From Archaeoglobus fulgidus DSM 4304 (GTDB lineage: Archaea; Halobacteriota; Archaeoglobi; Archaeoglobales; Archaeoglobaceae), in the NCBI RefSeq assembly GCF_000008665.1, contig NC_000917.1, positions 1,860,001 through 1,892,000 of the forward strand: 32,000 bases of DNA, read 5' to 3'. The position numbers and the translations under genes were made by a program. Below, one piece after another: positions 5,659 through 24,777 of this stretch; the first letter of the stretch is position 1; every line of letters starts with the position of its first letter. Below the pieces are notes generated by a model that saw only the letters and a list, made by a program, of their open reading frames with translations, did no database searches and was not told where the DNA came from.

Positions 5659-6570
5659 CTAAATTTCTCTGTACTCGTAAACCACTCCTTCTGCTGCTAT
5701 TGAGTAAACTGCCTTTCCGTCAATCTCTGTCTTCACAACGGGACTGTCTGACATTGCAAAGACCTTTTTGAGGTCTTCCTCGCTTTCCAGTATGATTTTT
5801 GCACCCTCTCTCCTGCCATTAATGACGTGGGGATTTCTCCTTTCTCTCTTGAAAGCATCTCTGTTCAGAATCGCTACCGGCACTGCAGCGAAAACCGCCA
5901 TCGCCGCATAAACTATTCTGGCGCTGTTTACACTCAATCCACCAAAGCTGTTCTCTGTGACTTCTTTCGTGCTGTAAACCGTTCTTATACTCTTAGAATC
6001 ATCTGAAAAGCTGTAAAGGTCGCTCCCTTCCTTCAGCGTGATTGTGTGGTTGAAGCTCTCGTTTTCGGCTTTAGCTGTGAAGGCTATCTCCGTAATCCTC
6101 GTTAGTCTCGGCAGCGCTGTGCCATCTTTCACCGCAGCAAGTCTTTCGCCCATCTGGGTGAAGTTAAACGCAATCGGAATGCTCAAACTACCAGCGAACT
6201 CACCCTGCTCGTCCTTTAGCGTGTCCTCCCAAATCTGAACCTTGTCTCTCCCATCCTGAACGAAGTAGGTGGTTCTGACAGTCATTCGATACTCTCCAGC
6301 CCTTTCAGGGCTTATGGAGTAGAGATACTCGCCCTCTATGCTCCCTGTAATTCCGGCAGGGTAGTAGTCGAGCGATGCCTTACTGCCGTAAATTGATTCA
6401 TTCGAAAGCATTGCATGATGCTTAAACTCTCCCTTCTGCTCCACCACCTCATTAATAACACTTCTCACACTCTCAGCCGGAGTTGAGAAGGCGTAAAGGG
6501 CCATGACAGCCAGCAATGCTGCCGCAACAGACAGCACAACTGTCGTCAATTTTTTATATTTAGATTCCAT
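5659..6570 (-). CDS. bitopic membrane protein of the fibre operon: N-terminal TM or signal anchor, about 190-aa external domain, C-terminal TM, about 70-aa cytoplasmic tail
   Basis: Hydrophobic segments LTTVVLSVAAALLAVMALYAF and IVYAAMAVFAAVPVAIL, followed by a basic stop-transfer RDAFKRERRN. A GGTGAT SD sits in the 6-nt gap after the upstream gene. No family recognised with certainty. Confidence 0.7.
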   Translation of the reverse strand: MESKYKKLTTVVLSVAAALLAVMALYAFSTPAESVRSVINEVVEQKGEFKHHAMLSNESIYGSKASLDYYPAGITGSIEGEYLYSISPERAGEYRMTVRTTYFVQDGRDKVQIWEDTLKDEQGEFAGSLSIPIAFNFTQMGERLAAVKDGTALPRLTRITEIAFTAKAENESFNHTITLKEGSDLYSFSDDSKSIRTVYSTKEVTENSFGGLSVNSARIVYAAMAVFAAVPVAILNRDAFKRERRNPHVINGRREGAKIILESEEDLKKVFAMSDSPVVKTEIDGKAVYSIAAEGVVYEYREI

Positions 6571-6576
6571 ATAAAA

Positions 6577-7389
6577 TCACCTCACTGCTTTAACGATGAT
6601 GGGGTTGCTCACAATTCCAAGCCCCTTGATTTCCGCACCATCGTTGAGATTGTAACTTCCCGGACTTGTGAACTCCTGTTTTCCCGCAGGATTGTGCTTT
6701 GTTGCGATTGTTACATCCATGAACTCTGTTCCCTCAACATAGACATCCCAGACTATCTTGGTTGTACAGCTCCTCCCCGCTCCGGGGTGGTGGGTTGCGA
6801 AACTGCCATCTGAAGCTGCTATGCTCAGAACCTCAAACTCTGCAGGAATCGTGTCAAGGATGGTGTAATTGTCACCAGCATCGCTCTCGACGAGAATTCT
6901 GAACTTCCATACCTCTCTCGTGAAGAGCGGGACAGTTGTGTTACCGCTGAGTAACACTTTGCTCATCCTGACAGCTGGGTCAACAACTTTAACGCTGCAT
7001 GCAGGGATTTTGGCTGAACCGTTATCCCAGAAAGCCTCGATGTCAATCGGTATCGTGTACTCTCCCTGACTTCCTCTGAATTCAGCCTCAACGAGCTTTT
7101 CCTCACCTGCATACAGAAAAGTCGGGTTGCTGAATGTCAGGATGTCATTTGGTGTGGAGAAGTACAGCTCAACATCCTCCCCAAGGTTGTTTTTCACGCT
7201 AATCACACCTGTGCTATCGCCATTGGCAAGGTAGAGAGTCATTTCGGGGCATTCAAAGCCTATGTAGGAGCTGTTGTTATCAGCTATGTTGACAGCAACT
7301 CCCCTCGCCCCGTAATACTCTCTGAAATTACCACTCGAACCCAGAACGAGCACGAGCGTGGCGGCAAGGATTATTAACAACTTTTTCAT
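6577..7389 (-). CDS. secreted two-domain protein (putative tip or adhesin subunit)
   Basis: Signal peptide MKKLLIILAATLVLVLGSSG. The mature N-terminus NFREYYGARGVAVNIADNNSSYIGF is homologous to that of the 8887..9420 product. The C-terminal half (YTILDTIPAEFEVLSIAASDG...TKIVWDVYVEGTEFMDVTIATK) resembles DUF11/Cna-B-type adhesin repeats. ATGA overlap with the upstream peptidase gene. Confidence 0.75.
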   Translation of the reverse strand: MKKLLIILAATLVLVLGSSGNFREYYGARGVAVNIADNNSSYIGFECPEMTLYLANGDSTGVISVKNNLGEDVELYFSTPNDILTFSNPTFLYAGEEKLVEAEFRGSQGEYTIPIDIEAFWDNGSAKIPACSVKVVDPAVRMSKVLLSGNTTVPLFTREVWKFRILVESDAGDNYTILDTIPAEFEVLSIAASDGSFATHHPGAGRSCTTKIVWDVYVEGTEFMDVTIATKHNPAGKQEFTSPGSYNLNDGAEIKGLGIVSNPIIVKAVR

Positions 7390-8423
7390 AATTTCAACCT
7401 CCTTCTTTTACTCAATCTTATAACCTCCTCCTCTCCAGCCCTCGTGGCGTAGTATATCACGCCCAGAACCGCTGCTAGCTCCACCGCAAAGGCAGCGAGC
7501 GGCAGGAAAGGATTCAAACCGTACATTCTGATTATCAAATCTGATGGTAAAATGAGCGGATAAGCGTGAACCTTTACCTCCTCATAATAAATTCTTGTTT
7601 CTGACGGAACTCTAACGTGAACGCTTAACTCTGCCCTGTCCCCTCCTGAAAGTATTTTGCTCTCATCCTTCAGCTCCACTCTCTCACTTTCTGAGCTGAA
7701 AAGGTAAAGGAGTGGAAAAAGGGCGTTGTTCTTTATCTCAATCTGCCTGTCAAACTCCGATTCGGGAAGATACCACCCCTCTTTCTGCCCACCTGCCAGC
7801 GTTGATGCATAGTTGAACCCAACAACCCCCCAAGTGGCGATAACCGAAAGAAGGAGCATTGCAATTGATATTGTTGAGACTGCAACGTAGGCAGTTTTGT
7901 ATCTCAGCCTGTAAACCTTTCTCTCCTTCTTCCTCCTCTCTTCTTTTCCCGTCAAAAGCATAGCTCCACCTACTATCATGAAAACTGCAAGCAGAATGTT
8001 CATTGTTGTGCCCGAAAGTCTCTGAATGTAGTTTCCCACCTCAGGGATTTTTATGGGATTTCCAAGCAAAACCAAAACTACTCCCGCAACGCTCTCCCTT
8101 TTGACAACACTATTAGACCCCTGCTGGTCTGTGGCGATGTTGTGGTCTCCTTTGGTTATGTATCCCCCATCCGTCTCCGCCACAACTCTGTGGACCGTCC
8201 AGTGGCCGTTGAGGTTGAACACGATTATGTCGTCCGGCTTCGCCTCTGCCAGCGGATTTATGAGGAAAAGGTCTCCTCTGTTCAGCGTTGGAGTCATGCT
8301 GTCTGATGTAACGTAGGAAAGCAGAACCGGCCTGTTAAGCAAAAATCCTGCCGTTGATGCAAGCAGAAATACTGCAAGAATAAGCATGAGAAGGTCAGAC
8401 AGCTTCATCGCACTCACCTTCAA
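7386..8423 (-). CDS. type I signal peptidase, Sec11/SipW (Ser-His) type, fused to a roughly 195-aa polytopic C-terminal extension
   Basis: N-terminal TM followed by SDSMTPTLNRGDLFLINP (catalytic Ser box), WTVHRVV (His box) and GYITKGDHNIATD (GD.N..D box). No catalytic Lys box. Extra TMs are NILLAVFMIVGGAMLLTG, VAVSTISIAMLLLSVIATWGVVGF and LPLAAFAVELAAVLGVIYYA. Confidence 0.85.
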   Translation of the reverse strand: MKVSAMKLSDLLMLILAVFLLASTAGFLLNRPVLLSYVTSDSMTPTLNRGDLFLINPLAEAKPDDIIVFNLNGHWTVHRVVAETDGGYITKGDHNIATDQQGSNSVVKRESVAGVVLVLLGNPIKIPEVGNYIQRLSGTTMNILLAVFMIVGGAMLLTGKEERRKKERKVYRLRYKTAYVAVSTISIAMLLLSVIATWGVVGFNYASTLAGGQKEGWYLPESEFDRQIEIKNNALFPLLYLFSSESERVELKDESKILSGGDRAELSVHVRVPSETRIYYEEVKVHAYPLILPSDLIIRMYGLNPFLPLAAFAVELAAVLGVIYYATRAGEEEVIRLSKRRRLKL

Positions 8424-8853
8424 ACGTCTTAATGCTGTAACTTTCCTCCATCAGCCCGAGCTCGGTTGAGCTGAACTCAACGCCCACTGAAATGCTTTCG
8501 TTAACTGCCAGGGAGAAGCTGATGGTTTGCAAAGCCTCACCGCTGGTGTAAAACCTAATCAAGTCACTCTGCGAGTGAAGGACAACACAAACAGGAAAGC
8601 CGTTGCCGTTCTCTATTCTCAGCAAATCGTCAAATCTGTAAGTAGAGCCGGGGCTTAATCCCTTGCCGTATCCCGGATAATTCGGGTTGTTTTCGGTGAT
8701 GTCTATTGTAAGATTTTCCTCATTGCTGCCGTATGGTGAGGGAGAGTAAAGCAAAACTCCGTTTATGGTCTCCGCAGCTATAGCAGAGATAGCCGGAGCT
8801 CTCCATCCGAGAGCTATGAGAAGTAGTGTTATCGCAATTACGAGCTTTTTCAT
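8395..8853 (-). CDS. small secreted protein, NPNYPGYG-motif family (DUF1102-like from memory), short N-terminal variant
   Basis: Signal peptide MKKLVIAITLLLIALGWRAPAISAIA, then the motif ITENNPNYPGYGKGLSPGSTYRFDD. Paralogous to the two upstream genes. An SD (GAGGAAAG) lies upstream. Confidence 0.8.
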   Translation of the reverse strand: MKKLVIAITLLLIALGWRAPAISAIAAETINGVLLYSPSPYGSNEENLTIDITENNPNYPGYGKGLSPGSTYRFDDLLRIENGNGFPVCVVLHSQSDLIRFYTSGEALQTISFSLAVNESISVGVEFSSTELGLMEESYSIKTFEGECDEAV

Positions 8854-8886
8854 TTACTTTCCTCATAAAAAATTAAATTTGAGAGC

Positions 8887-9420
8887 TTACTCGCAAGCTC
8901 CCGCATCTGCACTTACACTCATCTGCGCTTCATTGCTTCCCAGATCCTTGTTCGTGTTGTCGAATATGAATCCAACTGGAACCGGCTGGTTGTGGTAGAC
9001 GGTGAAGTGTATCTGTGTTCCCGGACCGCTTATCGGGCTATCATAGTCTCCAGCAAAGAACGAGATGCCATCTCCCTGGTTAAGCGATATGTGGACGCAA
9101 ATCGGGAAGTCCGCATCTTCGTTCTCCCAGAGCTCGTTGCTCACGTTGAACATCTCCTCAAACACGTAGGTCGTGTTGACGCTCATTCCATCGCCATAAC
9201 CCGGATAATTGGGGTTGTTTGGCGATATCTCAATGGTCAGCTTTCCGTTGTTTAGGTAGGCGTAGGGCTGAATTGGAGTTAGATCAATAAACTCGTTGTC
9301 ATCTGATGTTATATTAACCGTCACGCTCCTCTCTGCCTCGTAATACCTGAAGTTTGCTCCCGCTCCTATTGTTAGGGTTAAGCCAACAATAAGAAGCAGA
9401 AGTCCCGCTAACTTTTTCAT
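8887..9420 (-). CDS. small secreted protein, NPNYPGYG-motif family (putative fibre subunit)
   Basis: Signal peptide MKKLAGLLLLIVGLTLTIGAGA, then the motif ISPNNPNYPGYGDGMSVNTTYVFEE. TAATG start/stop overlap with the upstream paralogue. Confidence 0.85.
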   Translation of the reverse strand: MKKLAGLLLLIVGLTLTIGAGANFRYYEAERSVTVNITSDDNEFIDLTPIQPYAYLNNGKLTIEISPNNPNYPGYGDGMSVNTTYVFEEMFNVSNELWENEDADFPICVHISLNQGDGISFFAGDYDSPISGPGTQIHFTVYHNQPVPVGFIFDNTNKDLGSNEAQMSVSADAGACE

Positions 9421-10010
9421 TATCTCACCTGTCCACAGTTATTCAGCTCTGCAGGCTCTGTTCCAAGCCTGTAGGCCTTGACTGTCATCGTCTCATCCCA
9501 CACATCTCCCGGACTGTCACCGTTAGCGCTGAGGTCCATTCCAATTCTCTTTTCCGAGTTTGGTCCAAGAGTAAAGCAAACATCATCTCTCGCACTGTCT
9601 GATGCTGTTGCTGCAGCACCGCCATCCACCGCATAAACTCCACCCTCGTGGCTGTAGAATTCCACATGCGTATCGGATGAAGTAACTCTAACAACTATCC
9701 ACATGTCTTCCCACAGATGGTTGCTAACCGCAAAAACCTCGTCGAAGTTATACTCGCTGGCAGGGCTTATTCCATCACCGTATCCCGGATAATTTGGGTT
9801 TTCAGGTGAGAAGTCCACTACAAGCTCTCCGTTGTCAGCGATGTAGGCGTAGGGCTGTATCGGCTTAAGGTCGATAAGCTCTGTATCGTCAGTTGTAATG
9901 TTCCAGTGAACGCTTCTATCTGCGTTGTAGTCACTAAAGGTAGCGCTTACGCCTATGACAAGGCTCAAAGCCACCATTGCTCCCAATATGCCCAAAGGCA
10001 TTTTTCTCAT
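9420..10010 (-). CDS. small secreted protein, NPNYPGYG-motif family (putative fibre subunit), TasA-like ATFSD N-terminus
   Basis: MRKMPLGILGAMVALSLVIGVSATFSDYNADRSV..., with the motif FSPENPNYPGYGDGISPASEYNFDE. The start is set at ATG 10008-10010, which is preceded by GAGGTGA. The ORF-track extension to 10043 (MSAECRVRGEK) lacks an SD. Confidence 0.85.
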   Translation of the reverse strand: MRKMPLGILGAMVALSLVIGVSATFSDYNADRSVHWNITTDDTELIDLKPIQPYAYIADNGELVVDFSPENPNYPGYGDGISPASEYNFDEVFAVSNHLWEDMWIVVRVTSSDTHVEFYSHEGGVYAVDGGAAATASDSARDDVCFTLGPNSEKRIGMDLSANGDSPGDVWDETMTVKAYRLGTEPAELNNCGQVR

Positions 10011-10061
10011 TTTTTCACCTCTTACTCGGCATTCTGCCGACAAGGAATATTGGTCGAAATG

Positions 10062-14880: not shown

Positions 14881-14900
14881 AGCCGGATTTCGATTTCAAG

Positions 14901-14908
14901 TTTAAAAA
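14901..14908 (-). promoter_or_regulatory. TATA box (TTTTTAAA on the minus strand) for mptG, leaderless
   Basis: Centre lies 25 nt upstream of ATG 14880. Confidence 0.4.
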
Positions 14909-14956
14909 CGCTTTTCAAAAGGTTGCCTTATAACTATTATGGTCATTAGCTAAAAG

Positions 14957-14966
14957 CTTTAATATA
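14957..14966 (+). promoter_or_regulatory. TATA box (CTTTAATATA) for the giant surface-protein gene
   Basis: About 30 nt upstream of ATG 14992, with a GGGAG SD-like element in between. Confidence 0.4.
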
Positions 14967-15399
14967 GCGTAATTACTTTTAAGGGAGTTGGATGAAAGTC
15001 AGCGCTTTGCTCGCACTCACGGTTGTTGTATTTCTCGTTTCCAACTTAGCCGGTAGTGTGGAATTTTCAGGCAATATAGGCAACGAAACAGTCAATAAAA
15101 CAATTTCTGTTGAGAAAGTTTACTTTCCGGGAGATAAAGTAATTCTAAAGGCAAATTTCATGCCCTTAAAGGCAAAGCTGGTTGACCCGGCAGGCAAGGT
15201 TATCGGACTGGAATTCAGAAAAAGCGAAGGGGGCTTTGAGGCGGAGCTTGAGCTGAAGAAGGATGTTGTACTAGGTAAGTATCTTCTTTTTGCGGACAAC
15301 GTTTCAGCAGAATTCTACGTGGACAGCTACTCAATTGAAGCTGCCTACTTCAATGGCAAGGTTGTTGGAAACGTCAGCTACTACTTTGCTGAGCCCGAG

Positions 15400-15514
15400 T
15401 ACGTTTACTACAAAGCCGGGAAGGAAGAGGGAAAGGCAAAGGTGGCTGAGGACGGGAGCTTTGAGATTTTGCTGAAGAAGGCAGCTAAAGAAGTCGAGCT
15501 GAGATGCGGGAATG
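15400..15514 (+). repeat. 115-bp near-identical intragenic direct repeat, copy 1
   Basis: tacgtttactacaaagccgggaaggaagagggaaaggcaaaggtggctgag... differs from the copy at 16537..16651 at 6 of 115 positions (manual alignment). Encodes YVYYKAGKEEGKAKVAEDGSFEILLKKAAKEVELRCGN. Confidence 0.9.
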
Positions 15515-16536
15515 CCGTTGAGAGGGTAAAGCTGAAGGCTGAGCTGAGCATCGTGCTTGACAGGGTTGAGGTTGTAAATGAAACGGCCTTTGTTGAGGGC
15601 AGAGTTCTGCTTAATGGTGTCGAAACTGAGGCGAACCTGAGCTACTGGTTTGATGAAGGAGAGGAGAGGGTTCTGGAGGTTAATGGAACCTTTAACCTCA
15701 GCTTCAGCAACGTCAGCGGGATTCTGCATTTGATCGCTGAGAATAACGGGCTGAGGGCAGAGGAGAGCGTTGAAATAGAGGCGATAAAGAAGGTTGTTGA
15801 GGTTGGCGGAGTTTACTTTGCGGGCGATACGGTTGAGGTTGTTACCAACTTCAAGCCTAAGAAGGGGCTGATTGTCGGGCCCGATGGAAAAAAGGAGGAG
15901 CTTGAGTTCGTTGAGGAGGACGGAAAGTATTTGGCGAGATACGAGCTGAAGAAGGACGTCGTTCTGGGTAACTACACCGTTCTGGTTGATGGAATTGTGA
16001 AGCAGTTCGTTGTCGATTTTTGCGAGGTTTCAGCCGAGTTCGGGGATGGGGCGATTTGGGGTGAGGCGAGGAGCTTCTACACCACCCCAAAGGTAAGGTA
16101 TCTTATTGCTGGAGAGAACTTTTCCGAGGAAGGGGTTGCTGGGGGGAATTTCAACATTCCCGTAAACAGGACTGGAGATTTCAGGGCTGTTTTTGAGTGT
16201 GGAAACTCCCGCTATGAGATGAACTTCAGCGTTGCGGAGGCGAGGAACGTTGAGGTGGACGATTTCAGCTTTTTGGGAGAGATTGTTGAGGTGAGAGCAA
16301 CCTTCATGCCCGAAGAGGCCTACATAGTTACTCCCTCTAACGAGACTGTTCGGCTGAACTTCTCGGAGAGGGAGGGGGCGTTCATCGCTGAGATTGGGGC
16401 AGAGGAGATTGGGAGATACAATTTGAGGGTGGATGAGTTCAATCTGAGCTTTGTGGTTGACGATTACTCGATAAATGCGAGCTTTAATGGTTCGGCTGTT
16501 GCTGGTACAATAAAATGGCATTTTGTTAAGCCCGAT

Positions 16537-16651
16537 TACGTTTACTACAAAGCAGGGAAGGAAGAGGGAAAGGCAAAGGTGGCTGATGACGGAAGCTTCG
16601 AGATTTTGCTGAAGAAGGCAGCCAAAGAAGTTGAGCTGAGATGCGGGAATG
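16537..16651 (+). repeat. 115-bp near-identical intragenic direct repeat, copy 2
   Basis: See copy 1. Encodes YVYYKAGKEEGKAKVADDGSFEILLKKAAKEVELRCGN. The flanking repeat sequence is far more diverged. Confidence 0.9.
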
Positions 16652-19600
16652 TTCTTAAGATCGTGAAAGTCACCCCCAAACCGCCAAAGGAAGAGAAAGG
16701 GGAGATTGTTGCCTTTGACCCGGTAAAAAAGGTCATTGTGATTAAAAAGCTGGAGGAGGAACAGGACGGAAAGTTTAAGATAGCTTCAACCGAGGAAAGA
16801 AAGAAAAAAGTCAAACTTGTTGAACTTGAAGTTCCCGCAACTGAGGAAAACATCAAAAAATTCAATTTAACGCCTGATGTTTTGAGCACAGAAATCAAAA
16901 CTAAAAGGGTAAAGAAGGACATGATAAGGCTGGAAGTTAACAACAAGCTGGAAACGTGGTACAGGTTCAGCGTTGAGATTCCTGAAGGTTACAGGGTTAA
17001 GGGGATTATAGGAGATGACGGGAGGAGGATTGTCAACACCGTCCATGTTAACAGGAGCACCGGCGAGTTGGAGGGAGATTTGAGGTGGTATGTTAAGAAC
17101 AATACCCTTTACTTCTACGACGATCCCATTTGGGGGTACGACATCTCCCTCTACCCACCAAGACCGAACAGGTCGATAGCGGTTGAGCTGGCTTACTCTG
17201 GACCTTATTCAGAGGGTGGACAAATTTCGGCCATTATTTTCCCTTACTCCGAAGGAGATGACGATGCAACAATAACCTCCTACGACCACGCTGGAAGAAC
17301 TGAGGATTATGGATATGCTTATGATTTGGATATTGATGCCGGTTCTAAAATCGCTATTAGGTTCTCTTCTGGCGGGAACACGAGAGAGTTTGGAAATTGG
17401 TGGGATCACTTAAATGGAGCTGAGCCGCTCGGTGATGACCTAATTAACCAGATAAGCAGAGAGGACACACCGCTAAACACTGCTCCAAACGGAGTTGTTG
17501 AAAGTGTAATCACCACAAAAATGCAAACCCCCCTCTGGCAGAACTCTCAGGTTAACATCACCCAGAAGGTCATAATCAGAGACAACAGCAGATGGTTTGC
17601 TACAATTTACTACATTGAAAACATTGGAAGTACAACCATAACGAACCTAAGATTCTTTCAGGGAATGGACTGGAACTTTAACGGAGATTTTAGTGATGAT
17701 TATGGATTCTACAATTCAAGTGTAGATACTGTCTATGGTTATGATTCAAATGCTGCACCGGGAGACATTCAGTATGGTGGTTTCTCCTCAAATATTCCGA
17801 GCTCTGCACATGACGTTGGAAATTACTACAGTGACATATGGACAGGAATAGACCAAGACAATCTTCAAAATCGGAATTCCTACTATCGAGACGCAGGAGT
17901 CGCTCTGGCATGGGATAAACCCTCTCTCGCTCCGGGAGAGATGTGGATTGTTCCGGTCATCTGGGGACTCGGATTCACTAAGGAGGACATGGTCGCACAA
18001 ATAAACGACGGAAAGTCAAAGCTCTACGATACCGGAATTCTATCCATAGACGCTCCAGCAAACAACTCAAATCTGAACCCCTCGCAGGGAGTTGTTTACT
18101 TCAACGCCACCGCAGCTCTCTTCGGGATAGTTGATGCCTACAACCTTGAGGTCATCTTCAACATTACAAAGGTCGGTGGAGGTTACAGCTATCAGGGCTC
18201 AAAGACTGTCAACCTCTCCGTCCCCGATGCAGAAACAGCCAACGTTTCCTTCCCGCTCGACATCTCATCGCTTGGCTACGGAACATACAAAGTCAGCTTC
18301 AGAACGAATCTCTCCAACGACCAGAACACTACTAACGACGAAAAGTGGATTTACGTCAACATTGTTGGATTCACTGTCGAGCCTGACAAACCATTAACTG
18401 CAAATCCCGGCGAAGAAGCGTTCCACAATCTAACCGCAATCAATGGTCTTTCCTCCCAGAGGTTCGATGTAAGGATTGAGGGCACTTCAGAAGGTTGGCC
18501 CACGGCAATATATGTAAGCGGGGTGAAAATTGCAGAAGATGCAGATGGAGACTCCTTCTGGGATTTTGTTGATTCGAATTATGACACCAACTCCAACGGC
18601 ATACCCGACATACCAATCCCACAGGGGACGAGCTACATCAACGTATCTAAGGAAATACCATCCTCCGCAGAGCTGGGGGTAAGCGACTTCACCCAGCTCA
18701 ACTTTACCTCCACAACTGACGCATCAATTTTCGATACTGCAACAATCCAAACATCCACCCCACCCCCTCCAACAGAGATTAAGACCTTCTATCTCCACGG
18801 AGATTCTGTTTTGAACACATCTGCAGAGTCCACTCCATCTCAAATACAGATCGTGGCCAACTCTCTCCACTCGTGGTATCAGAACCCGGTTTTCGCAGAC
18901 AATTTCAGGATTTACGATAACGTGACCGTAAACTTATGGCTCAGCAGTTCAACCTCATCAACTCACGAGGTTAGAGTACAGGTTCTGTCAACAACCGGAA
19001 CCACGTCATACCTTATCGGCGCAAACTCGACCACTCTCACTCTAACCACCACACCCACACTCTACACCTTCAAAATCCCTCTCACCTCCCCATTTGAGTT
19101 CCGGAGAGGAGATTACATTGTATTGAGAGTTGAAAATATCGCATCCAGCGACATGACGGTATCCATGTCCCAAACTTATTCATCGAACATTACTCTCCAC
19201 ACATCAACCTACGTTAACGTTGAAGAGATTCAATCGGTTGTTTCGGGAAACGATGTTACAGTTTACGCTAACGTAACAGACCCCATAGGCTCTTACGACA
19301 TATCTGAAGCGAGAATTGAAGTCTTCTACCCCAACGGAAGCCTTCTAATCTCAACAACCATGAACCTCAACACCACTGACCCTTCAAGCCCCTCACTCTG
19401 GAAGCTCTTCGACTTCACCTTTACTGCACCTGTGCCCGGATTTTACAGGGTAAATGTAACTGGAGTTGAGTCGAATGGTGTGACCTCAACATCCACAGCT
19501 TACGTTGCGGTGGGGAAGATAGTAACAGGGAGAGTGCTTGAAGACCTGTTCCCTCTTGGGAAGAACAATGGGGAGGATATAGGGCTCTCAAACGTGCGCG

Positions 19601-20739
19601 TTGCCCTTTATGAGGACAATGGAAACGGTTTGCTGGATGAAAACGATAAGATTGTGGGCATTGACACGACAAACTCTACCGGCTATTTCAGACTCTCTCC
19701 AGTTAATGTCTCTGCCACCTACTTCATAGTGGTTGATTCAAGAACGCTGACATCCTTCAGAGGATTAAATTCAGGTTATAAGGTGGAAAGCACTTGGGCA
19801 GAGCAAACATATCAGACTGAATGGGATGAGAGCAGCTGGGTTGTTGTTCAGAAATTTGGCGGGCAGGATCCGGAGGAAAGCGACTCCTTCGGGCTGAACT
19901 TTGAGCACTATACAGCCTTAAACCTCAACAACTACAATGGAGAAAGTATAGACTTTGGATTCAGCTTTGAGGTCATCGTTAACATCGAAGACAAAAAGGA
20001 AGAGAGTTTGAAGCCCATTGGGGAGGTATTTATAGTAGAGAACGTTGGCGAGAGCTGGAAGACGGTTTACCTTCACAACTACTATGAAAGTCCCGTTATA
20101 GTGTGCACCTACAACCTCCCGAGCAGTTCTGATCCACCAGCAGTTGTAAGGATAAGGAATGTTCAGCATTACAGCTTTGAGATAAGGATTCAGAATCCCG
20201 GAGATTCTGCGACACCAACACCATCAGACGTGCACTGCATCGTGATGGAGGAGGGGAACTGGACTCTAAGCGATGGAACAAAGGTTGAGGCTCACAGGGT
20301 GGTGAGTGATGAGACAAATCGTCGTGGAAGCTGGAATTCAGGATTGGAGCACCTAACTTACAACTGGAGCTATGCAAACCCAGTAGTTCTGGGGCAGGTT
20401 ATGAGCTACAACGATCCCGACTGGTCGGCTTTCTGGTGCAGTAATGGAACAAGGCAAAACCCTCCAGATTCTTCAAACCTTTACGTCGGAAAGCATGTTG
20501 GTGAGGATACAGACATAACGAGAAATCCCGAAGTTCTGGGTGTGATAGTCGTTGAAGCCGGAAGTGGGGTTGTTAATGGCATGAGTTACGAAGCGGATCT
20601 CGGCGCCGATTCCATCAGGGGAGTTGATGACGGCCCACCCTTCAGCTACTCCTTAGGCGGTGATTACTCAGTTGCGATAACCACTCAAAATGCTATGGAT
20701 GGTGGAAACGGAGGTTGGGCTGTATTATACGGTTCAAAT

Positions 20740-20749
20740 CCTGTTAGCA
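20740..20749. repeat. target-site duplication, left copy (cctgttagca)
   Basis: Identical 10-mer at 21964..21973, immediately outside the IS inverted repeats. Confidence 0.85.
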
Positions 20750-20769
20750 GGTTTTGGGACAAAATTCCT

Positions 20770-20943
20770 TTAATCCCTGACAACAATCACATACGCTCTC
20801 CACCCAATATACCTCTTGGGCACATCAACCTTTGCTGAATTACCGAAAGGCGTGACTCTCTTCTCGAAAACAACCTCAACCTCCTCTTTCAGAACAAAAT
20901 CTCCCTTCTTCACTTCAACCCTCCTCATGTTAAGTATATCCAT
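20770..20943 (-). CDS. small IS-encoded protein, 57 aa (AbrB/SpoVT-like; DUF2080-type 'transposon-encoded protein' from memory)
   Basis: MDILNMRRVEVKKGDFVLKEEVEVVFEKRVTPFGNSAKVDVPKRYIGWRAYVIVVRD. The FGNSAKV.VPK...G pattern fits a swapped-hairpin barrel. Divergent from the transposase across a 36-nt AT-rich spacer. The longer 136-aa track ORF is an upstream extension antisense to the transposase. Confidence 0.6.
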   Translation of the reverse strand: MDILNMRRVEVKKGDFVLKEEVEVVFEKRVTPFGNSAKVDVPKRYIGWRAYVIVVRD

Positions 20944-20979
20944 AGAAATACTTAAATACTTTTTGGTTGGAATCAGAAC

Positions 20980-21948
20980 ATGAACCTTGGATTCAGAGTG
21001 ACAGGGAAGTTTGTAAGGGAACTTCTGGATGTTTTGGATGAAATTGCAGAGGAGATAAGACAGGAGGAGAAGGAAAAGTATCCGTACACAGAATGGGAGA
21101 GGAAGAGAGAAGTTGTTAAGGAAAGGCTGAGAAAACTCCCTGAATACGTTAGAGAGGCTATTTCTGTGATAACCGTGCAAAAGAGGGTGGGAAGACCAAA
21201 GAAAGTTGATCTGGAGAAGAGAGTTATGCTCTTTCTGTTTGCAAGGCTGATGGACAAATCAAACAGAGATATTGAGGAGCTTTTAGAGCTGTTTGAACCT
21301 TTATTCGGGATAAAGGTTAGCTACAAAACGATAGAAAGATTATACTCGGATGAAGAAGTTAGAATGGCTTTACACAACCTCTTCATCCTTCTGCTTAGAG
21401 AGGAAGGAGTTTCAGGAGATTTTTCAGGAGATGGGACAGGATACAGCCTAACCATCACTAAGCACTATAGAAGCAATCCTAAAAGGAAAGGTAAAGACTT
21501 CAGATACGTTTTCAGGATAATTGACATCGATACGGGAATGTACGTTGGCTTTGGCTATTCTGACAGATCTGAGAAAGATGCCTTTGAGAAGGCTTTAGGA
21601 ATGCTCAAAAGCATGGGGGTGAAGGTAAACTCGATTTCTCTGGATAAGTATTACAGCAGTAGGAAGACTCTGAGGCTGTTTGATGCTGAGACAGCTGTCT
21701 ACGTCATTCCAAAGCGAAATCTTGCCAGAATAGGATTTGACTGGTTGAGGGTTATCGAGAGGATTGTTGAAGCTCCTTATAGGTTTCTGAAGAGGTACTT
21801 CAAGAGGAACTTAAGTGAGGCAGGATTTTCTGCTGATAAGAGGAGATTTGGATGGTTGATAAGGCAGAGGAGGGAGGACAGGAGAGAGATGGCTTTGTTT
21901 GCTGTTGGGCTGTGGCACAATGTGTTTGCTGTTAGGGTGGTGAGGTAA
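20980..21948 (+). CDS. IS transposase (DDE-type)
   Basis: 322-aa ORF with GDGTGYSL, SLDKYYSS and a C-terminal RNLSEAGFSADKRRFG (the N..E..FS..KR.FG pattern common to IS4/IS5/ISH3-like DDE transposases). The stop codon lies inside the right inverted repeat. Confidence 0.85.
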   Translation: MNLGFRVTGKFVRELLDVLDEIAEEIRQEEKEKYPYTEWERKREVVKERLRKLPEYVREAISVITVQKRVGRPKKVDLEKRVMLFLFARLMDKSNRDIEELLELFEPLFGIKVSYKTIERLYSDEEVRMALHNLFILLLREEGVSGDFSGDGTGYSLTITKHYRSNPKRKGKDFRYVFRIIDIDTGMYVGFGYSDRSEKDAFEKALGMLKSMGVKVNSISLDKYYSSRKTLRLFDAETAVYVIPKRNLARIGFDWLRVIERIVEAPYRFLKRYFKRNLSEAGFSADKRRFGWLIRQRREDRREMALFAVGLWHNVFAVRVVR

Positions 21949-21963
21949 TTTTGTCCCAAAGTC

Positions 21964-21973
21964 CCTGTTAGCA
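21964..21973. repeat. target-site duplication, right copy (cctgttagca)
   Basis: Identical to 20740..20749. Confidence 0.85.
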
Positions 21974-23886
21974 ATAAACTTAATCTTTCAATTGATGAAG
22001 ATCAAATCAGAGATGGTGAAAGAAGCCATGGTACTGAACAGGTTGCGTATTGGGTTTTCAACAAATCCGGCACACTTACAACAAAAGTTGATTCAGAGAG
22101 GTACTGTCAGGGCTGCTTGAGACAGTTCATAGCCAACTCCAACGCCATTGCAGGAAAGCAGCGTTCGTACTTCGTAATGGCTGTTGAGCCAAATAACAAG
22201 GTTTCTGACAGCAAATGGTGGAGCATAACAGTCAACTCCACCCTCGGCTCTCTACCAAATTTCAACGATGAGGTGGAGCTCAACGGAACCGTTTTAAACG
22301 CTGACATGACCGTAAACAACTCCAACCCAGACTGCCTGCTCTACAACTACTCCACCAACACCCTCGAAAGCGTAGCGTGTAGCAAATCAATCCCCGTTGG
22401 TGTTGGAAGCGATGGAGTGCCTTTCAGCGGTGACGAGCCGAGGTTAAATGCAATACCAAAGCCAGAAATCGAGATTATTGGTGTTGCTGGCTCTCCAGTG
22501 CTCAACTTTACTGCTAAGGCTCATGTAAGCTCCGTCAGCGTTTTCAGTGGTTCAAACGGAATAGAGGTTTATGGAGATGATTCTCAGCTCGATAAAGTCT
22601 TTGCTGGTTTGAGGGCGGATGGTTCTGACCCTTCGGATTCAGGCTTCCCAAGGATTTCAAGTCACGGAATCAGAATTCTTTCAAATAACACCACAGTTAA
22701 CTCTTCAATTGCCGCTTACAACGGAGGTCTGGGAATTCGATTCGAGGGTTCAGGAGTTAACTCTGGAAAGGCGGTGAACAGTATTGCATACTACAACGCC
22801 TTAAGCGGAAGCAATCTTGACGGTTTCATTGCTGTGAATGGGGCCTCAAACGTCATCTTCGAGAACTGCGTTGCGGCAAACAATTCAGGTTCAGGGATCG
22901 ACAACTACAATGGAGGCAGGATAACGATAAGGAACTGCTCTGTGGTCAAGAACGGGTGGGGGAATGCTGAGCCGAGCGGAATTAGAGTTTCGGGCAGTGG
23001 GAGCGAGATAGTAAACAACCTCGTTGCTGAAAATGTTGGAGATGGGATACTCGTCACACCTACTGGCAGCACAAGTACGCCAACCGGCATCAAAATTTCA
23101 AGAAACTCCATTTTCAAGAACGGCTATGTCGGTATCGACCTGAATGTTGAAGACACATCGAACAACATGGGAGACAATGTAACATTAAACGACGGCCAGC
23201 TCGACTGCTCTCAACCAAACTGCGGAATAGACTACCCCGTAATAACCGCAGCACAGCTTATCGGCAGCTCACTCCACATTGAGGGGTTCATAAACGACGA
23301 GAACGCTGGAAGTGGAAGCTCCAGCTTCGCCGGCGCCACCGTGGAAATCTACATGGTCAACAACTCAACTGATGGAGATGACCTTGCGGGCAACAATGTC
23401 CTCTCAGGTGGTTCCACATCCTCAAAATTCTACGGAGAGGGCTGGATTTATCTTGGGTCCTTAACAGCAGACTCAAGCGGTAACTTCCGGGGAGAGTTGA
23501 ACGTAGCGGGCAAAGGTGCAGAGGTTGGCTCCCTTATAACCGCTTTAACAATACTCAACGGAAACACTTCAGAGTTCGGTCCAGATGCCCGCGTAACGAC
23601 AAAACCCGTTAAAGTGAGAGCCGAGATGGCTATAACTTTCCGTGGTGCAAACATCACAATCACGGCTCTTGAGGAGGCGAACAACGTCAAACTTTACTGG
23701 ATAAAACCATCCGGCCTCGTTTTAACGGCAGAAGGTGATTTCGATTCAAGCGGCAATGATGGCGACATCTACTGGTGGGAGTTTGGCAGCATCTCTGCTG
23801 GAGAAGTTAGGCACGTTAACCTGACGTTCGGCGGAGATTTCTCCCTCATCGAGACATTTAACATCGGAGTTGACCCTCTGCAATAA
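21964..23886 (+). pseudogene. 3' fragment (about 640 codons) of the IS-disrupted giant surface-protein gene
   Basis: The frame is open from the IS end onward: (PVS)NKLNLSIDEDQIRDGERSHGTEQVAYWVFNKSG... It contains parallel beta-helix (PbH1/NosD-like) repeats at about 22657-23145 (GIRILSNNTTVNSSIAAYNGGLGIRF...NNSGSGIDNYNGGRITIRNCSVVKNG...) and a C-terminal beta-sandwich-like tail. No signal peptide or credible start of its own; the track start at 22117 is a TTG. Confidence 0.85.
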
Positions 23887-24703: not shown

Positions 24704-24777
24704 GGGCCGGTAGCTCAGTCTGGTAGAGCGTCGCCTTGGCATGGCGAAGGCCTGGGGTTCAAATCCCCACCGGTCCA
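24704..24777 (+). tRNA. tRNA-Ala, anticodon GGC
   Basis: Manual cloverleaf: acceptor GGGCCGG/CCGGTCC with the G3:U70 alanine identity pair; D arm GCTC-AGTCTGGT-AGAGC; anticodon stem TCGCC/GGCGA with loop TTGGCAT; T arm TGGGG-TTCAAAT-CCCCA; discriminator A. CCA is not encoded. Confidence 0.95.

What the first reader, a model, noticed from the sequence alone, without database searches (positions are those of the whole stretch)
14992..23886. Giant (reconstructed 2556-aa) secreted multi-domain adhesin-like gene split by an IS; precise excision restores the frame
Reconstruction:
- Deleting 20750..21963 plus one copy of the 10-bp duplication joins ...GGNGGWAVLYGSNPVS directly to NKLNLSIDEDQIRDGERSHGTEQVAYWVFNKSG...
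- There is no stop codon across the junction. The total is 5758 + 1913 = 7671 nt, or 2556 codons plus stop.

Ancestral protein, in order:
- A signal peptide.
- Three N-terminal repeats of about 190 aa with MG/Ig-like YFPGD.V motifs.
- A K/E-rich linker.
- A CARDB-like domain.
- A D-rich Ca-binding-like motif.
- A PPPP linker.
- An SdrD-B/Cna-B-like domain.
- An unnamed module of about 330 aa, which the IS hit.
- A parallel beta-helix (PbH1) domain.
- A C-terminal beta-sandwich.
- It carries dozens of N-x-S/T sequons, indicating heavy N-glycosylation potential.

State today:
- The 5' fragment keeps its promoter and signal peptide. It would be made as a 1948-aa truncated protein with a 29-aa IS-encoded tail after the junction codon.
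- The beta-helix part has no start or export signal of its own.
Basis: partly seen in the sequence, partly recalled or inferred. Interest (0 to 1): 0.65.

Follow-up and report, generated by a model that had tools for sequence, protein, structure and literature searches.

The report
Giant surface-protein gene split by ISA1214
In the Archaeoglobus fulgidus type strain, a jumping-gene copy (ISA1214) recently landed inside one 2,556-residue secreted surface-protein gene that is still intact in a sister strain; this is an ordinary insertional knockout, but the piece it hit is a widespread protein domain that no database names.

Summary
Window 14992-20749 plus 21974-23886 forms one 7,671-nt frame of 2,556 codons. 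It is interrupted by a 1,214-bp ISA1214 copy (20750-21963) flanked by a 10-bp target duplication, CCTGTTAGCA.

The predicted intact allele exists:
- An ENA metagenome protein (P0030) is identical to the reconstruction.
- A. fulgidus DSM 8774 (AIG99079.1) has the gene intact at the syntenic site, with 1 nt different in 7,671.
- A JGI contig also has it intact, again 1 nt different.
- Each holds a single copy of the target sequence.

Five orthologues read straight through the junction, so "two genuine genes" is refuted. A second public assembly carries the same insertion.

The domain list is only partly right:
- Confirmed: the signal peptide, three N-terminal repeats (about 145 aa, not 190), the beta-helix, the C-terminal beta-sandwiches and sequon enrichment.
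- Probable: MG2-like and SdrD-B-like domains.
- Not supported: CARDB.

The "unnamed module" the IS hit (aa 1674-1958) is a widespread domain: 3,293 cluster representatives, mostly in bacterial giant extracellular proteins. It has no Pfam or NCBIfam model and no PDB fold match, yet folds confidently (pLDDT 96.6).

The locus is positionally conserved in Archaeoglobus but carries different module sets.

Verdict: an ordinary, recent IS knockout of an uncharacterised modular surface protein. Adhesin function is inferred, not shown.

The parts
14881..14991 (+). Intergenic region upstream of the gene. It holds an A/T-rich TATA-like element (CTTTAATATAG) and a GGGAG Shine-Dalgarno-like motif just before the ATG. 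This is the putative archaeal promoter and 5' UTR.
   Evidence: Read directly from the sequence. Not tested; the promoter tool covers only sigma-70.
14992..20749 (+). 5' fragment of the giant gene: codons 1-1919 plus the first base of codon 1920. As it stands, the ORF runs on to 20838 (1,948 aa).
   Evidence: 1919/1919 identical to intact protein P0030.
14992..15060 (+). Sec-type signal peptide (MKVSALLALTVVVFLVSNLAGSV). It is the only hydrophobic stretch in the whole protein.
   Evidence: Kyte-Doolittle scan. The cleavage site is inferred.
15085..16677 (+). Three homologous N-terminal repeat units (aa 32-177, 263-407, 418-562), each MG2-like plus Ig-like, with a spacer domain of about 85 aa (aa 178-262) after unit 1.
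   Evidence: Pairwise blastp 30-49% identity, E 1e-17 to 1e-49. MG2 and Big_6 are subthreshold here. MG2 hits 8 of 22 homologues, best E 3.3e-8.
16678..19521 (+). Middle module (aa 563-1510): a K/E-rich start, an unassigned beta-rich region, the D-rich motif DADGDSFWDFVDSNYDTNSNGIPD (aa 1183-1206) and PPPP (aa 1257-1260). It is an exchangeable cassette; other alleles carry a 'choice-of-anchor U' cassette instead.
   Evidence: No Pfam family at E<=1, including CARDB.
19522..20010 (+). SdrD-B-like / transthyretin-like beta-sandwich (aa 1511-1673).
   Evidence: SdrD_B E 0.038 here. E 3.6e-6 in 2 homologues. PF17210 is precomputed for P0017.
20011..20749 (+). First 246 residues of the 285-aa unnamed all-beta module (aa 1674-1958), the part upstream of the IS.
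20740..20749 (.). Left copy of the 10-bp target-site duplication CCTGTTAGCA.
   Evidence: The intact alleles hold a single copy.
20750..21963 (+). ISA1214 insertion sequence, 1,214 bp, with 17-bp imperfect terminal inverted repeats (20750-20766 and 21947-21963).
   Evidence: The ends are identical in 8-9 independent copies. Another copy (L005) has 0 mismatches over 1,214 bp.
20770..20943 (-). Small IS-borne ORF (57 aa) of family DUF2080, 'putative transposon-encoded protein', antisense to the interrupted gene.
   Evidence: Pfam PF09853 E 1.7e-17. Called in every copy.
20980..21948 (+). ISA1214 transposase (322 aa), in the same orientation as the interrupted gene.
   Evidence: Same 90% cluster as the Ferroglobus 'ISA1214-5 transposase / ISNCY-like element ISA1214-1 family transposase'. 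Distant IS5-family match, E 6.4e-12, below cut-off.
21964..21973 (.). Right copy of the target-site duplication CCTGTTAGCA.
21974..23886 (+). 3' fragment of the giant gene: the last two bases of codon 1920, codons 1921-2556 and the stop. Gene callers start an artificial 589-aa ORF at TTG 22117. It has no signal peptide.
   Evidence: 636/636 identical to P0030.
21974..22089 (+). Last 39 residues of the unnamed module (its final three predicted beta-strands), separated from the rest by the IS.
   Evidence: Strands E248-254, E270-275 and E279-283 of model mbd554037062e.
22516..23022 (+). Right-handed parallel beta-helix core (Pfam Beta_helix, aa 2101-2269). The confidently modelled helix spans about aa 2039-2310, up to the low-confidence stretch at 2311-2334.
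   Evidence: PF13229 E 3.7e-9, 36.8 bits against cut-off 25.9. AF2 model. Foldseek hits to phage tailspike depolymerases.
23233..23883 (+). C-terminal beta-sandwich domains (aa 2340-2556), ending in the family-wide conserved NIGVDP motif. There is no transmembrane or known sorting signal.
   Evidence: Model strands. Ig-like Foldseek hits. G2551, D2553 and P2554 are invariant in 22 homologues.

Best explanation
The window comes from the chromosome of Archaeoglobus fulgidus DSM 4304 (VC-16).

Shown:
- A single gene for a 2,556-aa modular protein with an N-terminal hydrophobic signal-type sequence was interrupted by transposition of a 1,214-bp ISA1214 copy into codon 1920, with a 10-bp target duplication.
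- The insertion is recent. The two halves carry no further defects and are protein-identical to an intact allele.
- The IS copy is identical to another copy elsewhere.
- The gene is intact and syntenic in strain DSM 8774.
- The insertion point lies inside a compact 285-aa all-beta module and cuts off that module's last three predicted strands.

Inferred:
- The type strain can at most secrete a 1,948-aa product with a broken module. This product lacks the beta-helix and the conserved C-terminal domain.
- The 3' part has no export signal and is functionally dead.
- The intact protein most likely works as a heavily N-glycosylated, cell-surface or secreted glycan-recognising protein. It would have a stalk of MG2/Ig-like repeats presenting a lectin-like module and a tailspike-like beta-helix that binds, and perhaps cleaves, polysaccharide. 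The conserved NIGVDP-terminated domain may serve attachment.
- The locus behaves as a hypervariable cassette site. Positional orthologues between the GHMP-kinase gene and the DUF6846 gene carry different module sets, and one does so in a 99.9%-identical strain background.
For: Frame reconstruction:
- 7,671 nt, 2,556 codons, no internal stop.

Intact alleles:
- P0030 matches 1919/1919 and 636/636, with Asn at position 1920.
- DSM 8774 CP006577.1 (L015) and the JGI contig (L001) each differ by 1 nt in 7,671 and hold one copy of CCTGTTAGCA.
- Synteny is conserved.
- blastn shows the window is collinear with L001 except for the IS.

Source: the 1,948-aa product sits on a 2,178,400-bp contig.

Junction: it lies in the motif GGNGGWAVLYGSNPVS-x-LNLAIDEDxIxDxERSH, which is invariant or near-invariant in 5 orthologues.

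IS:
- It has inverted repeats, a target duplication, a transposase and a DUF2080 ORF.
- Other copies have 9- or 10-bp duplications.
- One other copy is identical over the full 1,214 bp.
- The same insertion is present in a second assembly, GCA_900069765.1.

Protein features:
- Beta-helix: Pfam above threshold, modelled, Foldseek to tailspike depolymerases at E 5e-5 to 1e-3.
- Sequons are 2-fold enriched, and the only hydrophobic segment is N-terminal.
- The module model has pLDDT 96.6.

Variable locus.
Against: - Nothing contradicts the IS-split reading.
- The functional part is weak. No homologue is characterised (all are 'hypothetical' or named by domain).
- There is no anchor signal.
- Catalytic residues in the helix were not examined.
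- Lectin similarity is only subthreshold: H_lectin in 6 of 41 members, best E 2.8e-4. There are no H-lectin structures among the top 50 Foldseek hits.
- Whether the insertion arose in nature or in culture cannot be told.
- Expression of either fragment is untested.
Confidence: 0.9

Rival explanations
1. These are two genuine neighbouring genes, a 1,948-aa secreted protein and a separate beta-helix protein, that merely flank an IS. The in-frame join is coincidental.
For: Gene callers and RefSeq list the 1,948-aa and 589-aa products as separate proteins.
Against: - Exact uninterrupted 2,556-aa alleles exist in three independent sources.
- Orthologues at 44-57% identity read through the junction.
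- The junction splits a compact domain that is found whole in thousands of proteins.
- A target-site duplication flanks the IS.
Confidence: 0.01
2. The insertion is an assembly or laboratory artefact of the reference genome and is not a property of the organism.
For: - IS copies are identical repeats that can be misplaced in assemblies.
- Very closely related sequences lack the IS.
Against: - A second assembly, GCA_900069765.1, has the same junctions on a 98-kb contig.
- A clean 10-bp duplication is a signature of real transposition.
- An origin during laboratory passage of the strain remains possible. It would still be a real insertion.
Confidence: 0.04
3. The intact protein is primarily an extracellular polysaccharide-degrading enzyme (a depolymerase with carrier and binding modules) rather than an adhesin.
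For: The best structural matches of the C-terminal half are beta-helix enzymes: 8wm1_A (annotated as a DHS dehydratase) and the phage capsule/LPS depolymerase tailspikes 9qrm, 6w4q, 5w6p and 8iq9. In bacteria the unnamed module co-occurs with CBM6 and PKD domains.
Against: - TM-scores are low (0.1-0.44) because the model is multidomain.
- No catalytic residues were identified.
- Shorter positional orthologues lack the helix altogether (P0005, 1,610 aa), so the helix is an optional cassette and not the core function.
Confidence: 0.3
4. The IS insertion is a reversible on/off switch (phase variation by precise excision) for this surface protein.
For: Precise loss of the IS plus one duplication copy restores the exact wild-type protein. 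Intact and interrupted alleles coexist among near-identical strains.
Against: No evidence of excision was found. Intact alleles are equally explained as never having been hit. Precise excision of DDE-type IS elements is generally rare (established knowledge).
Confidence: 0.05

Closest known systems
IS-generated insertional pseudogenes; specifically ISA1214 of Archaeoglobus fulgidus (ISNCY group)
   Same: - A 1,214-bp element with terminal inverted repeats and 9-10-bp target duplications.
- The transposase clusters at >=90% identity with proteins named ISA1214 transposase.
- It is multicopy with identical ends.
   Different: Nothing unusual. The only particular point is the target, the largest modular surface-protein gene of the region. 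I found no paper describing this disruption.
Archaeal and bacterial giant modular surface proteins ('choice-of-anchor U/X' proteins of Archaeoglobi and Methanococcales; bacterial Big/cadherin-like adhesins)
   Same: - Signal peptide.
- Tandem MG2/Ig-like repeats.
- Swappable cassettes.
- Shared N-terminal repeats and C-terminal NIGVDP domain with proteins that NCBI names choice-of-anchor U/X.
   Different: - This allele has no choice-of-anchor U domain.
- It has no LPXTG, PGF-CTERM or transmembrane anchor.
- No member has been studied experimentally.
Right-handed beta-helix proteins: pectate-lyase-like enzymes and phage tailspike depolymerases
   Same: Pfam Beta_helix is above threshold. The AF2 model shows a regular beta-solenoid. 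Foldseek hits include CBA120 TSP2 and the Klebsiella phage depolymerases.
   Different: Sequence identity is about 10-14%. It is embedded in a 2,556-aa chain and is not a trimeric tail protein. No catalytic site was identified.
H-type lectins (Pfam PF09458; Helix pomatia agglutinin type)
   Same: The only recurrent Pfam signal in the IS-hit module is subthreshold H_lectin. The module shows weak three-fold internal repetition, reminiscent of the trimeric assembly of H-type lectins (own knowledge).
   Different: It is below the Pfam cut-off in every member. No H-lectin structure appears among the top Foldseek hits. It is a 285-aa single-chain unit, not a domain of about 70-100 aa.

Membership tests
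IS-interrupted gene (insertional pseudogene) | A mobile element with terminal inverted repeats and its own transposase lies inside the coding sequence | tested here: met
IS-interrupted gene (insertional pseudogene) | A target-site duplication flanks the element | tested here: met
   The 10-bp CCTGTTAGCA lies on both sides. Other copies have 9-10-bp duplications.
IS-interrupted gene (insertional pseudogene) | An empty-site allele with a continuous reading frame exists in relatives | tested here: met
   P0030 is identical. DSM 8774 and JGI L001 each differ by 1 nt and hold a single target copy.
ISA1214 (ISNCY-like) | The transposase belongs to the ISA1214 protein family | tested here: met
   Same 90%-identity cluster as the Ferroglobus 'ISA1214-5 transposase'.
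ISA1214 (ISNCY-like) | Element length and ends match other copies | tested here: met
   1,214 bp. The 20 terminal bases are invariant in 8-9 copies. One copy has 0 mismatches.
Right-handed parallel beta-helix (Pfam PF13229) | Score above Pfam gathering threshold | tested here: met
   36.8 bits against 25.9, aa 2101-2269
Right-handed parallel beta-helix (Pfam PF13229) | Beta-solenoid fold | tested here: met
   In the AF2 model most 10-residue blocks over aa 2039-2310 have mean pLDDT 65-93 (two dip to 55-57). Foldseek E 3e-7 to 1e-3 to beta-helix enzymes.
Polysaccharide depolymerase / pectate lyase | Catalytic acidic or basic residues in the helix groove | not tested
CARDB (PF07705) | Pfam match in aa ~1005-1135 | tested here: not met
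   No hit at E<=1. None in 22 homologues at E<=1e-3.
SdrD B-like / Cna-B-like (PF17210) | Pfam match in aa 1505-1675 | tested here: inconclusive
   E 0.038, 14.6 bits against cut-off 29.7 here. 2 homologues reach E 3.6e-6.
MG2 (alpha-2-macroglobulin-type) domain (PF01835) | Pfam match in the N-terminal repeats | tested here: inconclusive
   17.6 bits against 32.8 here. 8 of 22 homologues at E<=1e-3, best 3.3e-8.
H-type lectin (PF09458) | Pfam match above threshold in the IS-hit module | tested here: not met
   0 hits in the query. 6 of 41 members are subthreshold, best E 2.8e-4. P0046 scores 23.2 bits against 24.
H-type lectin (PF09458) | Structural match to a solved H-type lectin | tested here: not met
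   None in the top 50 Foldseek PDB hits; the best hit overall is E 4.5e-3. Sub-domain searches were not possible.
Anchored cell-wall adhesins (LPXTG / PGF-CTERM / TM-anchored) | C-terminal sorting signal or transmembrane helix | tested here: not met
   There is no hydrophobic segment beyond aa 1-26. The protein ends ...FNIGVDPLQ.
Adhesin (functional class) | Demonstrated binding to a surface, cell or glycan | not testable with these tools
   No characterised homologue was found.
N-glycosylated archaeal surface protein | Sequon enrichment plus export signal | tested here: met
   65 sequons against 30.3 +/- 4.8 expected, and an N-terminal signal-type hydrophobic segment. Actual glycosylation is not testable.

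The most novel reading that the evidence does not exclude
The 285-aa module that the IS hit (aa 1674-1958) may define a large, so far unnamed extracellular domain family.
- It has at least 3,293 50%-identity cluster representatives.
- It often occurs in 2-4 tandem copies.
- It sits in giant bacterial proteins with PKD, cadherin-like, CBM6, FN3 or T9SS modules, in a few Archaeoglobi and in at least one virus.
- It has a confidently predicted compact all-beta fold with no Pfam or NCBIfam model and no counterpart in the PDB.
- It is possibly a single-chain pseudo-trimer of H-lectin-like units that binds glycans.

In parallel, the Archaeoglobus locus would be a hypervariable surface-protein cassette site.
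Probability: 0.45. Interest if true: 0.55.

Novelty: new member of a known kind. Interest (0 to 1): 0.32.

Why it matters
Practical points:
- The A. fulgidus type strain used in most laboratories lacks the intact form of its largest modular surface protein at this locus. Strain 7324 (DSM 8774) has it with a single-nucleotide difference.
- The two strains therefore form a natural near-isogenic pair at this locus for testing the protein's role in attachment, biofilm or virus interaction.
- Annotation should mark the 1,948-aa and 589-aa products as fragments of one pseudogene.

Broader points:
- The interrupted module is an abundant, unannotated and well-folding extracellular domain that deserves a family definition and a structure.
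- The locus shows cassette exchange of surface modules between closely related hyperthermophilic archaea.

Tried and rejected
- PDB sequence search with the whole protein: no hit at E<=1. With the module profile: only a chance-level hit at E 1.5.
- NCBIfam on the protein and on 41 module copies: nothing.
- Pfam on nine separate segments at E<=1: no CARDB, no TSP3, nothing for aa 563-1510 or for the C-terminal 217 aa.
- First AF2 job (aa 1505-2556, 6-sequence alignment): the lectin-like module came out unfolded (pLDDT 20-30), so it could not be used for that part. It was redone with a 41-sequence alignment.
- hhalign of the module's thirds: only weak support for a three-fold repeat (E 1e-4, 1.6e-4, and not significant). 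This is reported as suggestive only.
- Downstream 245-aa DUF6846/DUF6834_C gene as a possible anchor partner: rejected. It is always adjacent, but it has no signal peptide or hydrophobic segment by inspection of its translation. The P0002 orthologue lies in a different context.
- Literature: the one paper mentioning ISA1214 was not opened, the DSM 8774 genome paper does not mention this gene, and guessed locus tags AF2090-AF2093 gave no relevant paper.
- The sigma-70 promoter/terminator scan was not used because the organism is an archaeon.

Full report
**1. What is in the sequence**

- A 1,948-aa ORF runs 14992..20838. A 322-aa ORF runs 20980..21948. A 589-aa ORF ends at 23886.
- Between 20750 and 21963 lies a 1,214-bp element. 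Its ends are imperfect inverted repeats: GGTTTTGGGACAAAATT and the reverse complement GACTTTGGGACAAAATT.
- The element is bracketed by the 10-bp direct repeat CCTGTTAGCA, at 20740-20749 and 21964-21973.
- Removing the element plus one repeat copy gives 7,671 nt, which is 2,556 codons plus stop, with no internal stop. The junction reads ...GGNGGWAVLYGSNPVS|NKLNLSIDEDQ....
- The insertion splits codon 1920 (AAT Asn becomes AGG Arg). The present 5' product is therefore 1,919 native residues plus 29 IS-encoded residues.

**2. The predicted intact allele exists**

A search of 5.8 billion proteins with the reconstruction returned a 2,556-aa protein at about 100% identity and 100% coverage, and a 2,595-aa orthologue at 49% identity and 99% coverage.

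The cluster look-up gave these results:
- The 1,948-aa fragment sits on a 2,178,400-bp contig. Together with A. fulgidus being the only organism named for the members of its 90% cluster, this points to A. fulgidus DSM 4304; the strain assignment is my inference.
- Full-length members include AIG99079.1 / WP_052358804.1 of A. fulgidus DSM 8774, a JGI metagenome protein and an ENA metagenome protein.

The comparisons are as follows.
- The ENA protein P0030 is identical to the reconstruction: 1919/1919 on the 5' part, Asn at position 1920, and 636/636 on the 3' part.
- At the DNA level the DSM 8774 gene (CP006577.1, L015) differs from the reconstruction by one nucleotide in 7,671 (A968V).
- The JGI contig gene (L001) also differs by one nucleotide (V1288L).
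- Both read TCCTGTTAGCAATAAAC, with a single copy of the target.
- The flanks are 99.93-99.97% identical and collinear, with the same neighbouring genes.

The two halves have therefore accumulated no disabling change since the insertion, which is evidence that the event is recent.

**3. Not two genes, and not an artefact**

Five orthologues (P0002, P0003, P0004, P0011, P0012; 44-57% identity) read straight through the junction. The junction lies inside a motif that is invariant or nearly so: GGNGGWAVLYGSNP..(L)NLAIDEDxIxDxERSH..EQVAYWVF.

A second public assembly (GCA_900069765.1, contig FJNF01000194.1) has the same IS at the same junctions.

**4. The element**

- Its transposase falls in the 90%-identity cluster of proteins named 'ISA1214-5 transposase / ISNCY-like element ISA1214-1 family transposase'.
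- It has only a distant, below-cut-off match to IS5-family transposases.
- The element also carries a 57-aa ORF of family DUF2080, 'putative transposon-encoded protein', on the opposite strand (20770..20943; E 1.7e-17).
- Independent copies share invariant terminal 20-mers and have their own duplications: GGAGGAAGC (9 bp), CTCAAGGGG (9 bp) and ACATCAAACC (10 bp).
- One copy is identical to the window copy over all 1,214 bp.

This is an active, multicopy IS. The name and its occurrence in the A. fulgidus genome paper (Klenk et al. 1997) are from my own knowledge. Of the open-access papers I opened, none discusses this disruption; the one paper mentioning ISA1214 (PMC5473848) was not opened.

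**5. Architecture of the intact protein**

- Signal peptide: the only hydrophobic segment is aa 1-26, a signal-peptide-like N-terminus. There is no C-terminal anchor.
- N-terminal repeats: three homologous units occupy aa 32-177, 263-407 and 418-562. They are 30-49% identical pairwise (E 1e-17 to 1e-49). An 85-aa spacer domain follows the first unit. The units are therefore about 145 aa, not 190. MG2 and Big_6 are subthreshold here, but MG2 is found in 8 of 22 homologues (best E 3.3e-8).
- Middle region, aa 563-1510: this has no database family at all. The proposed CARDB domain has no support. The D-rich motif and the PPPP stretch are present as sequence. NCBI names one homologue 'thrombospondin type 3 repeat-containing'.
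- aa 1511-1673: this gives a weak SdrD_B match (E 0.038), which is stronger in two homologues.
- Beta-helix: it passes the Pfam threshold (aa 2101-2269). It is confidently modelled, together with C-terminal beta-sandwiches, over about aa 2039-2544, broken by two low-confidence stretches (aa 2311-2334 and 2384-2407). It resembles beta-helix enzymes, notably the phage tailspike depolymerases 9qrm, 6w4q, 5w6p and 8iq9. The C-terminal domains resemble Ig-like modules of integrins, RspB and alpha-2-macroglobulin.
- C-terminus: the extreme end, NIGVDP, is conserved throughout the family. That includes short homologues without the helix and Methanocaldococcus 'choice-of-anchor U' proteins.
- Sequons: there are 65, against 30.3 +/- 4.8 expected.

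**6. The module that was hit**

The module spans aa 1674-1958. The junction falls at module residue 246/247 and cuts off the last three predicted strands.

Distribution:
- HMMER against 1.84 billion cluster representatives found 3,293 proteins at E<=1e-3 and 1,048 at E<=1e-30. Many have 2-4 tandem copies.
- The carriers are large extracellular proteins with Big_9, cadherin-like, He_PIG, PKD, FN3, CBM6, Calx-beta or T9SS sorting domains.
- They come from Planctomycetota, Chloroflexi, Desulfobacterales, Bacteroidota, Sumerlaeia and others. All are annotated as hypothetical.

Database coverage:
- No Pfam or NCBIfam model covers it.
- The only recurrent signal is subthreshold H_lectin, in 6 of 41 copies.

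Structure:
- With a 41-sequence alignment AlphaFold2 gives a compact all-beta model: pLDDT 96.6, pTM 0.94.
- Foldseek finds no PDB structure at E<=1e-3. The best is a phage receptor-binding protein at E 4.5e-3 with TM about 0.2.
- Foldseek finds one clear viral predicted structure with the same module, at E 4e-18 and TMq 0.80.
- Profile comparison of the three thirds gives weak evidence of a three-fold internal repeat.

I therefore describe it as an unnamed, widespread, probably glycan-binding domain. It is not a member of the H-type lectin family.

**7. A variable locus**

The giant gene sits in the same position in four Archaeoglobus lineages: after the divergently transcribed GHMP-kinase gene and before a 245-aa DUF6846/DUF6834_C gene. 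Its module content differs between them:
- 2,556 aa here and in DSM 8774.
- 2,408 aa in P0003, with a choice-of-anchor U cassette in place of the middle module.
- 1,995 aa in P0008, with no lectin-like module.
- 1,610 aa in P0005, with no SdrD-like module, lectin-like module or helix.

The P0008 contig is 99.9% identical to the window downstream and 99% identical over the first 1.6 kb of the gene. The interior is too diverged for blastn. That is cassette replacement within an almost identical background.

**8. Interpretation and verdict**

Shown: this is one gene, recently inactivated by ISA1214 in the type-strain lineage, and intact in DSM 8774 and in environmental sequences.

Inferred: the intact product is an exported, N-glycosylated, glycan-recognising surface protein, either adhesin-like or a depolymerase carrier. 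The truncated product is probably non-functional for whatever the helix and the C-terminal domain do.

The finding is real and correctly interpreted, but it is an ordinary kind of event. Its added value lies in three things: the natural intact-versus-knockout strain pair, the unannotated domain and the variable locus.

Noticed in passing
window 5659-10043 (minus strand): A taf-like fimbrial gene cluster. It comprises a DUF5305-like 303-aa protein, a 270-aa ORF (no family match), an S24-type signal peptidase (7386..8423) and three DUF1102 proteins (8395..10043). It corresponds to AF_2076-AF_2081, already described as a non-halophilic analogue of haloarchaeal tat-fimbriae in PMC11821415. It lies 5 kb from the giant gene but is separated from it by housekeeping genes.
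   Followed up: partly
window 14992-23886 versus L002 (SRR23823820), L016, L018: The same chromosomal position holds alleles of 1,995, 1,610 and 2,408 aa with different module cassettes. One allele sits in a background whose flanks are 99.9% identical to the window. This indicates recombinational cassette exchange at a hypervariable surface-protein locus.
   Followed up: partly
window 20011-20749 + 21974-22089 (aa 1674-1958): The domain interrupted by the IS has thousands of relatives, mostly bacterial and often tandem. It has no Pfam, NCBIfam or PDB counterpart, and its AF2 model is very confident at pLDDT 96.6. One viral predicted structure (UPI001E6AE1CA_1) shares the fold.
   Followed up: yes
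window 23866-23883 (protein C-terminus ...FNIGVDPLQ): The extreme C-terminal motif NIGVDP is invariant or near-invariant (G, D, P) across 22 family members, including Methanocaldococcus 'choice-of-anchor U' proteins. In longer homologues it is followed by DUF11 repeats and a transmembrane tail. It may be an attachment or processing signal; this is unexplained.
   Followed up: no
window 20770-20943 (minus strand, inside the IS): ISA1214 carries a second, small ORF (57 aa, DUF2080 'putative transposon-encoded protein') divergent from the transposase. It is present in every copy examined.
   Followed up: partly
window 15385-15514 and 16522-16651: A 130-nt stretch is repeated at 93% identity inside the gene. 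It encodes YVYYKAGKEEGKAKVA(E/D)DGSFEILLKKAAKEVELRCGN in N-terminal repeat units 1 and 3. This is much more similar than the rest of the units and suggests recent intragenic conversion.
   Followed up: no
window 24704-24777 (+): A tRNA-Ala (GGC) gene lies just downstream of the DUF6846 gene.
   Followed up: no
L005 / L009 and other loci: Identical ISA1214 transposase proteins occur on at least 22 contigs, including oil-production-facility metagenomes. Close relatives exist in Ferroglobus placidus. This indicates recent activity and possibly transfer between Archaeoglobaceae.
   Followed up: no
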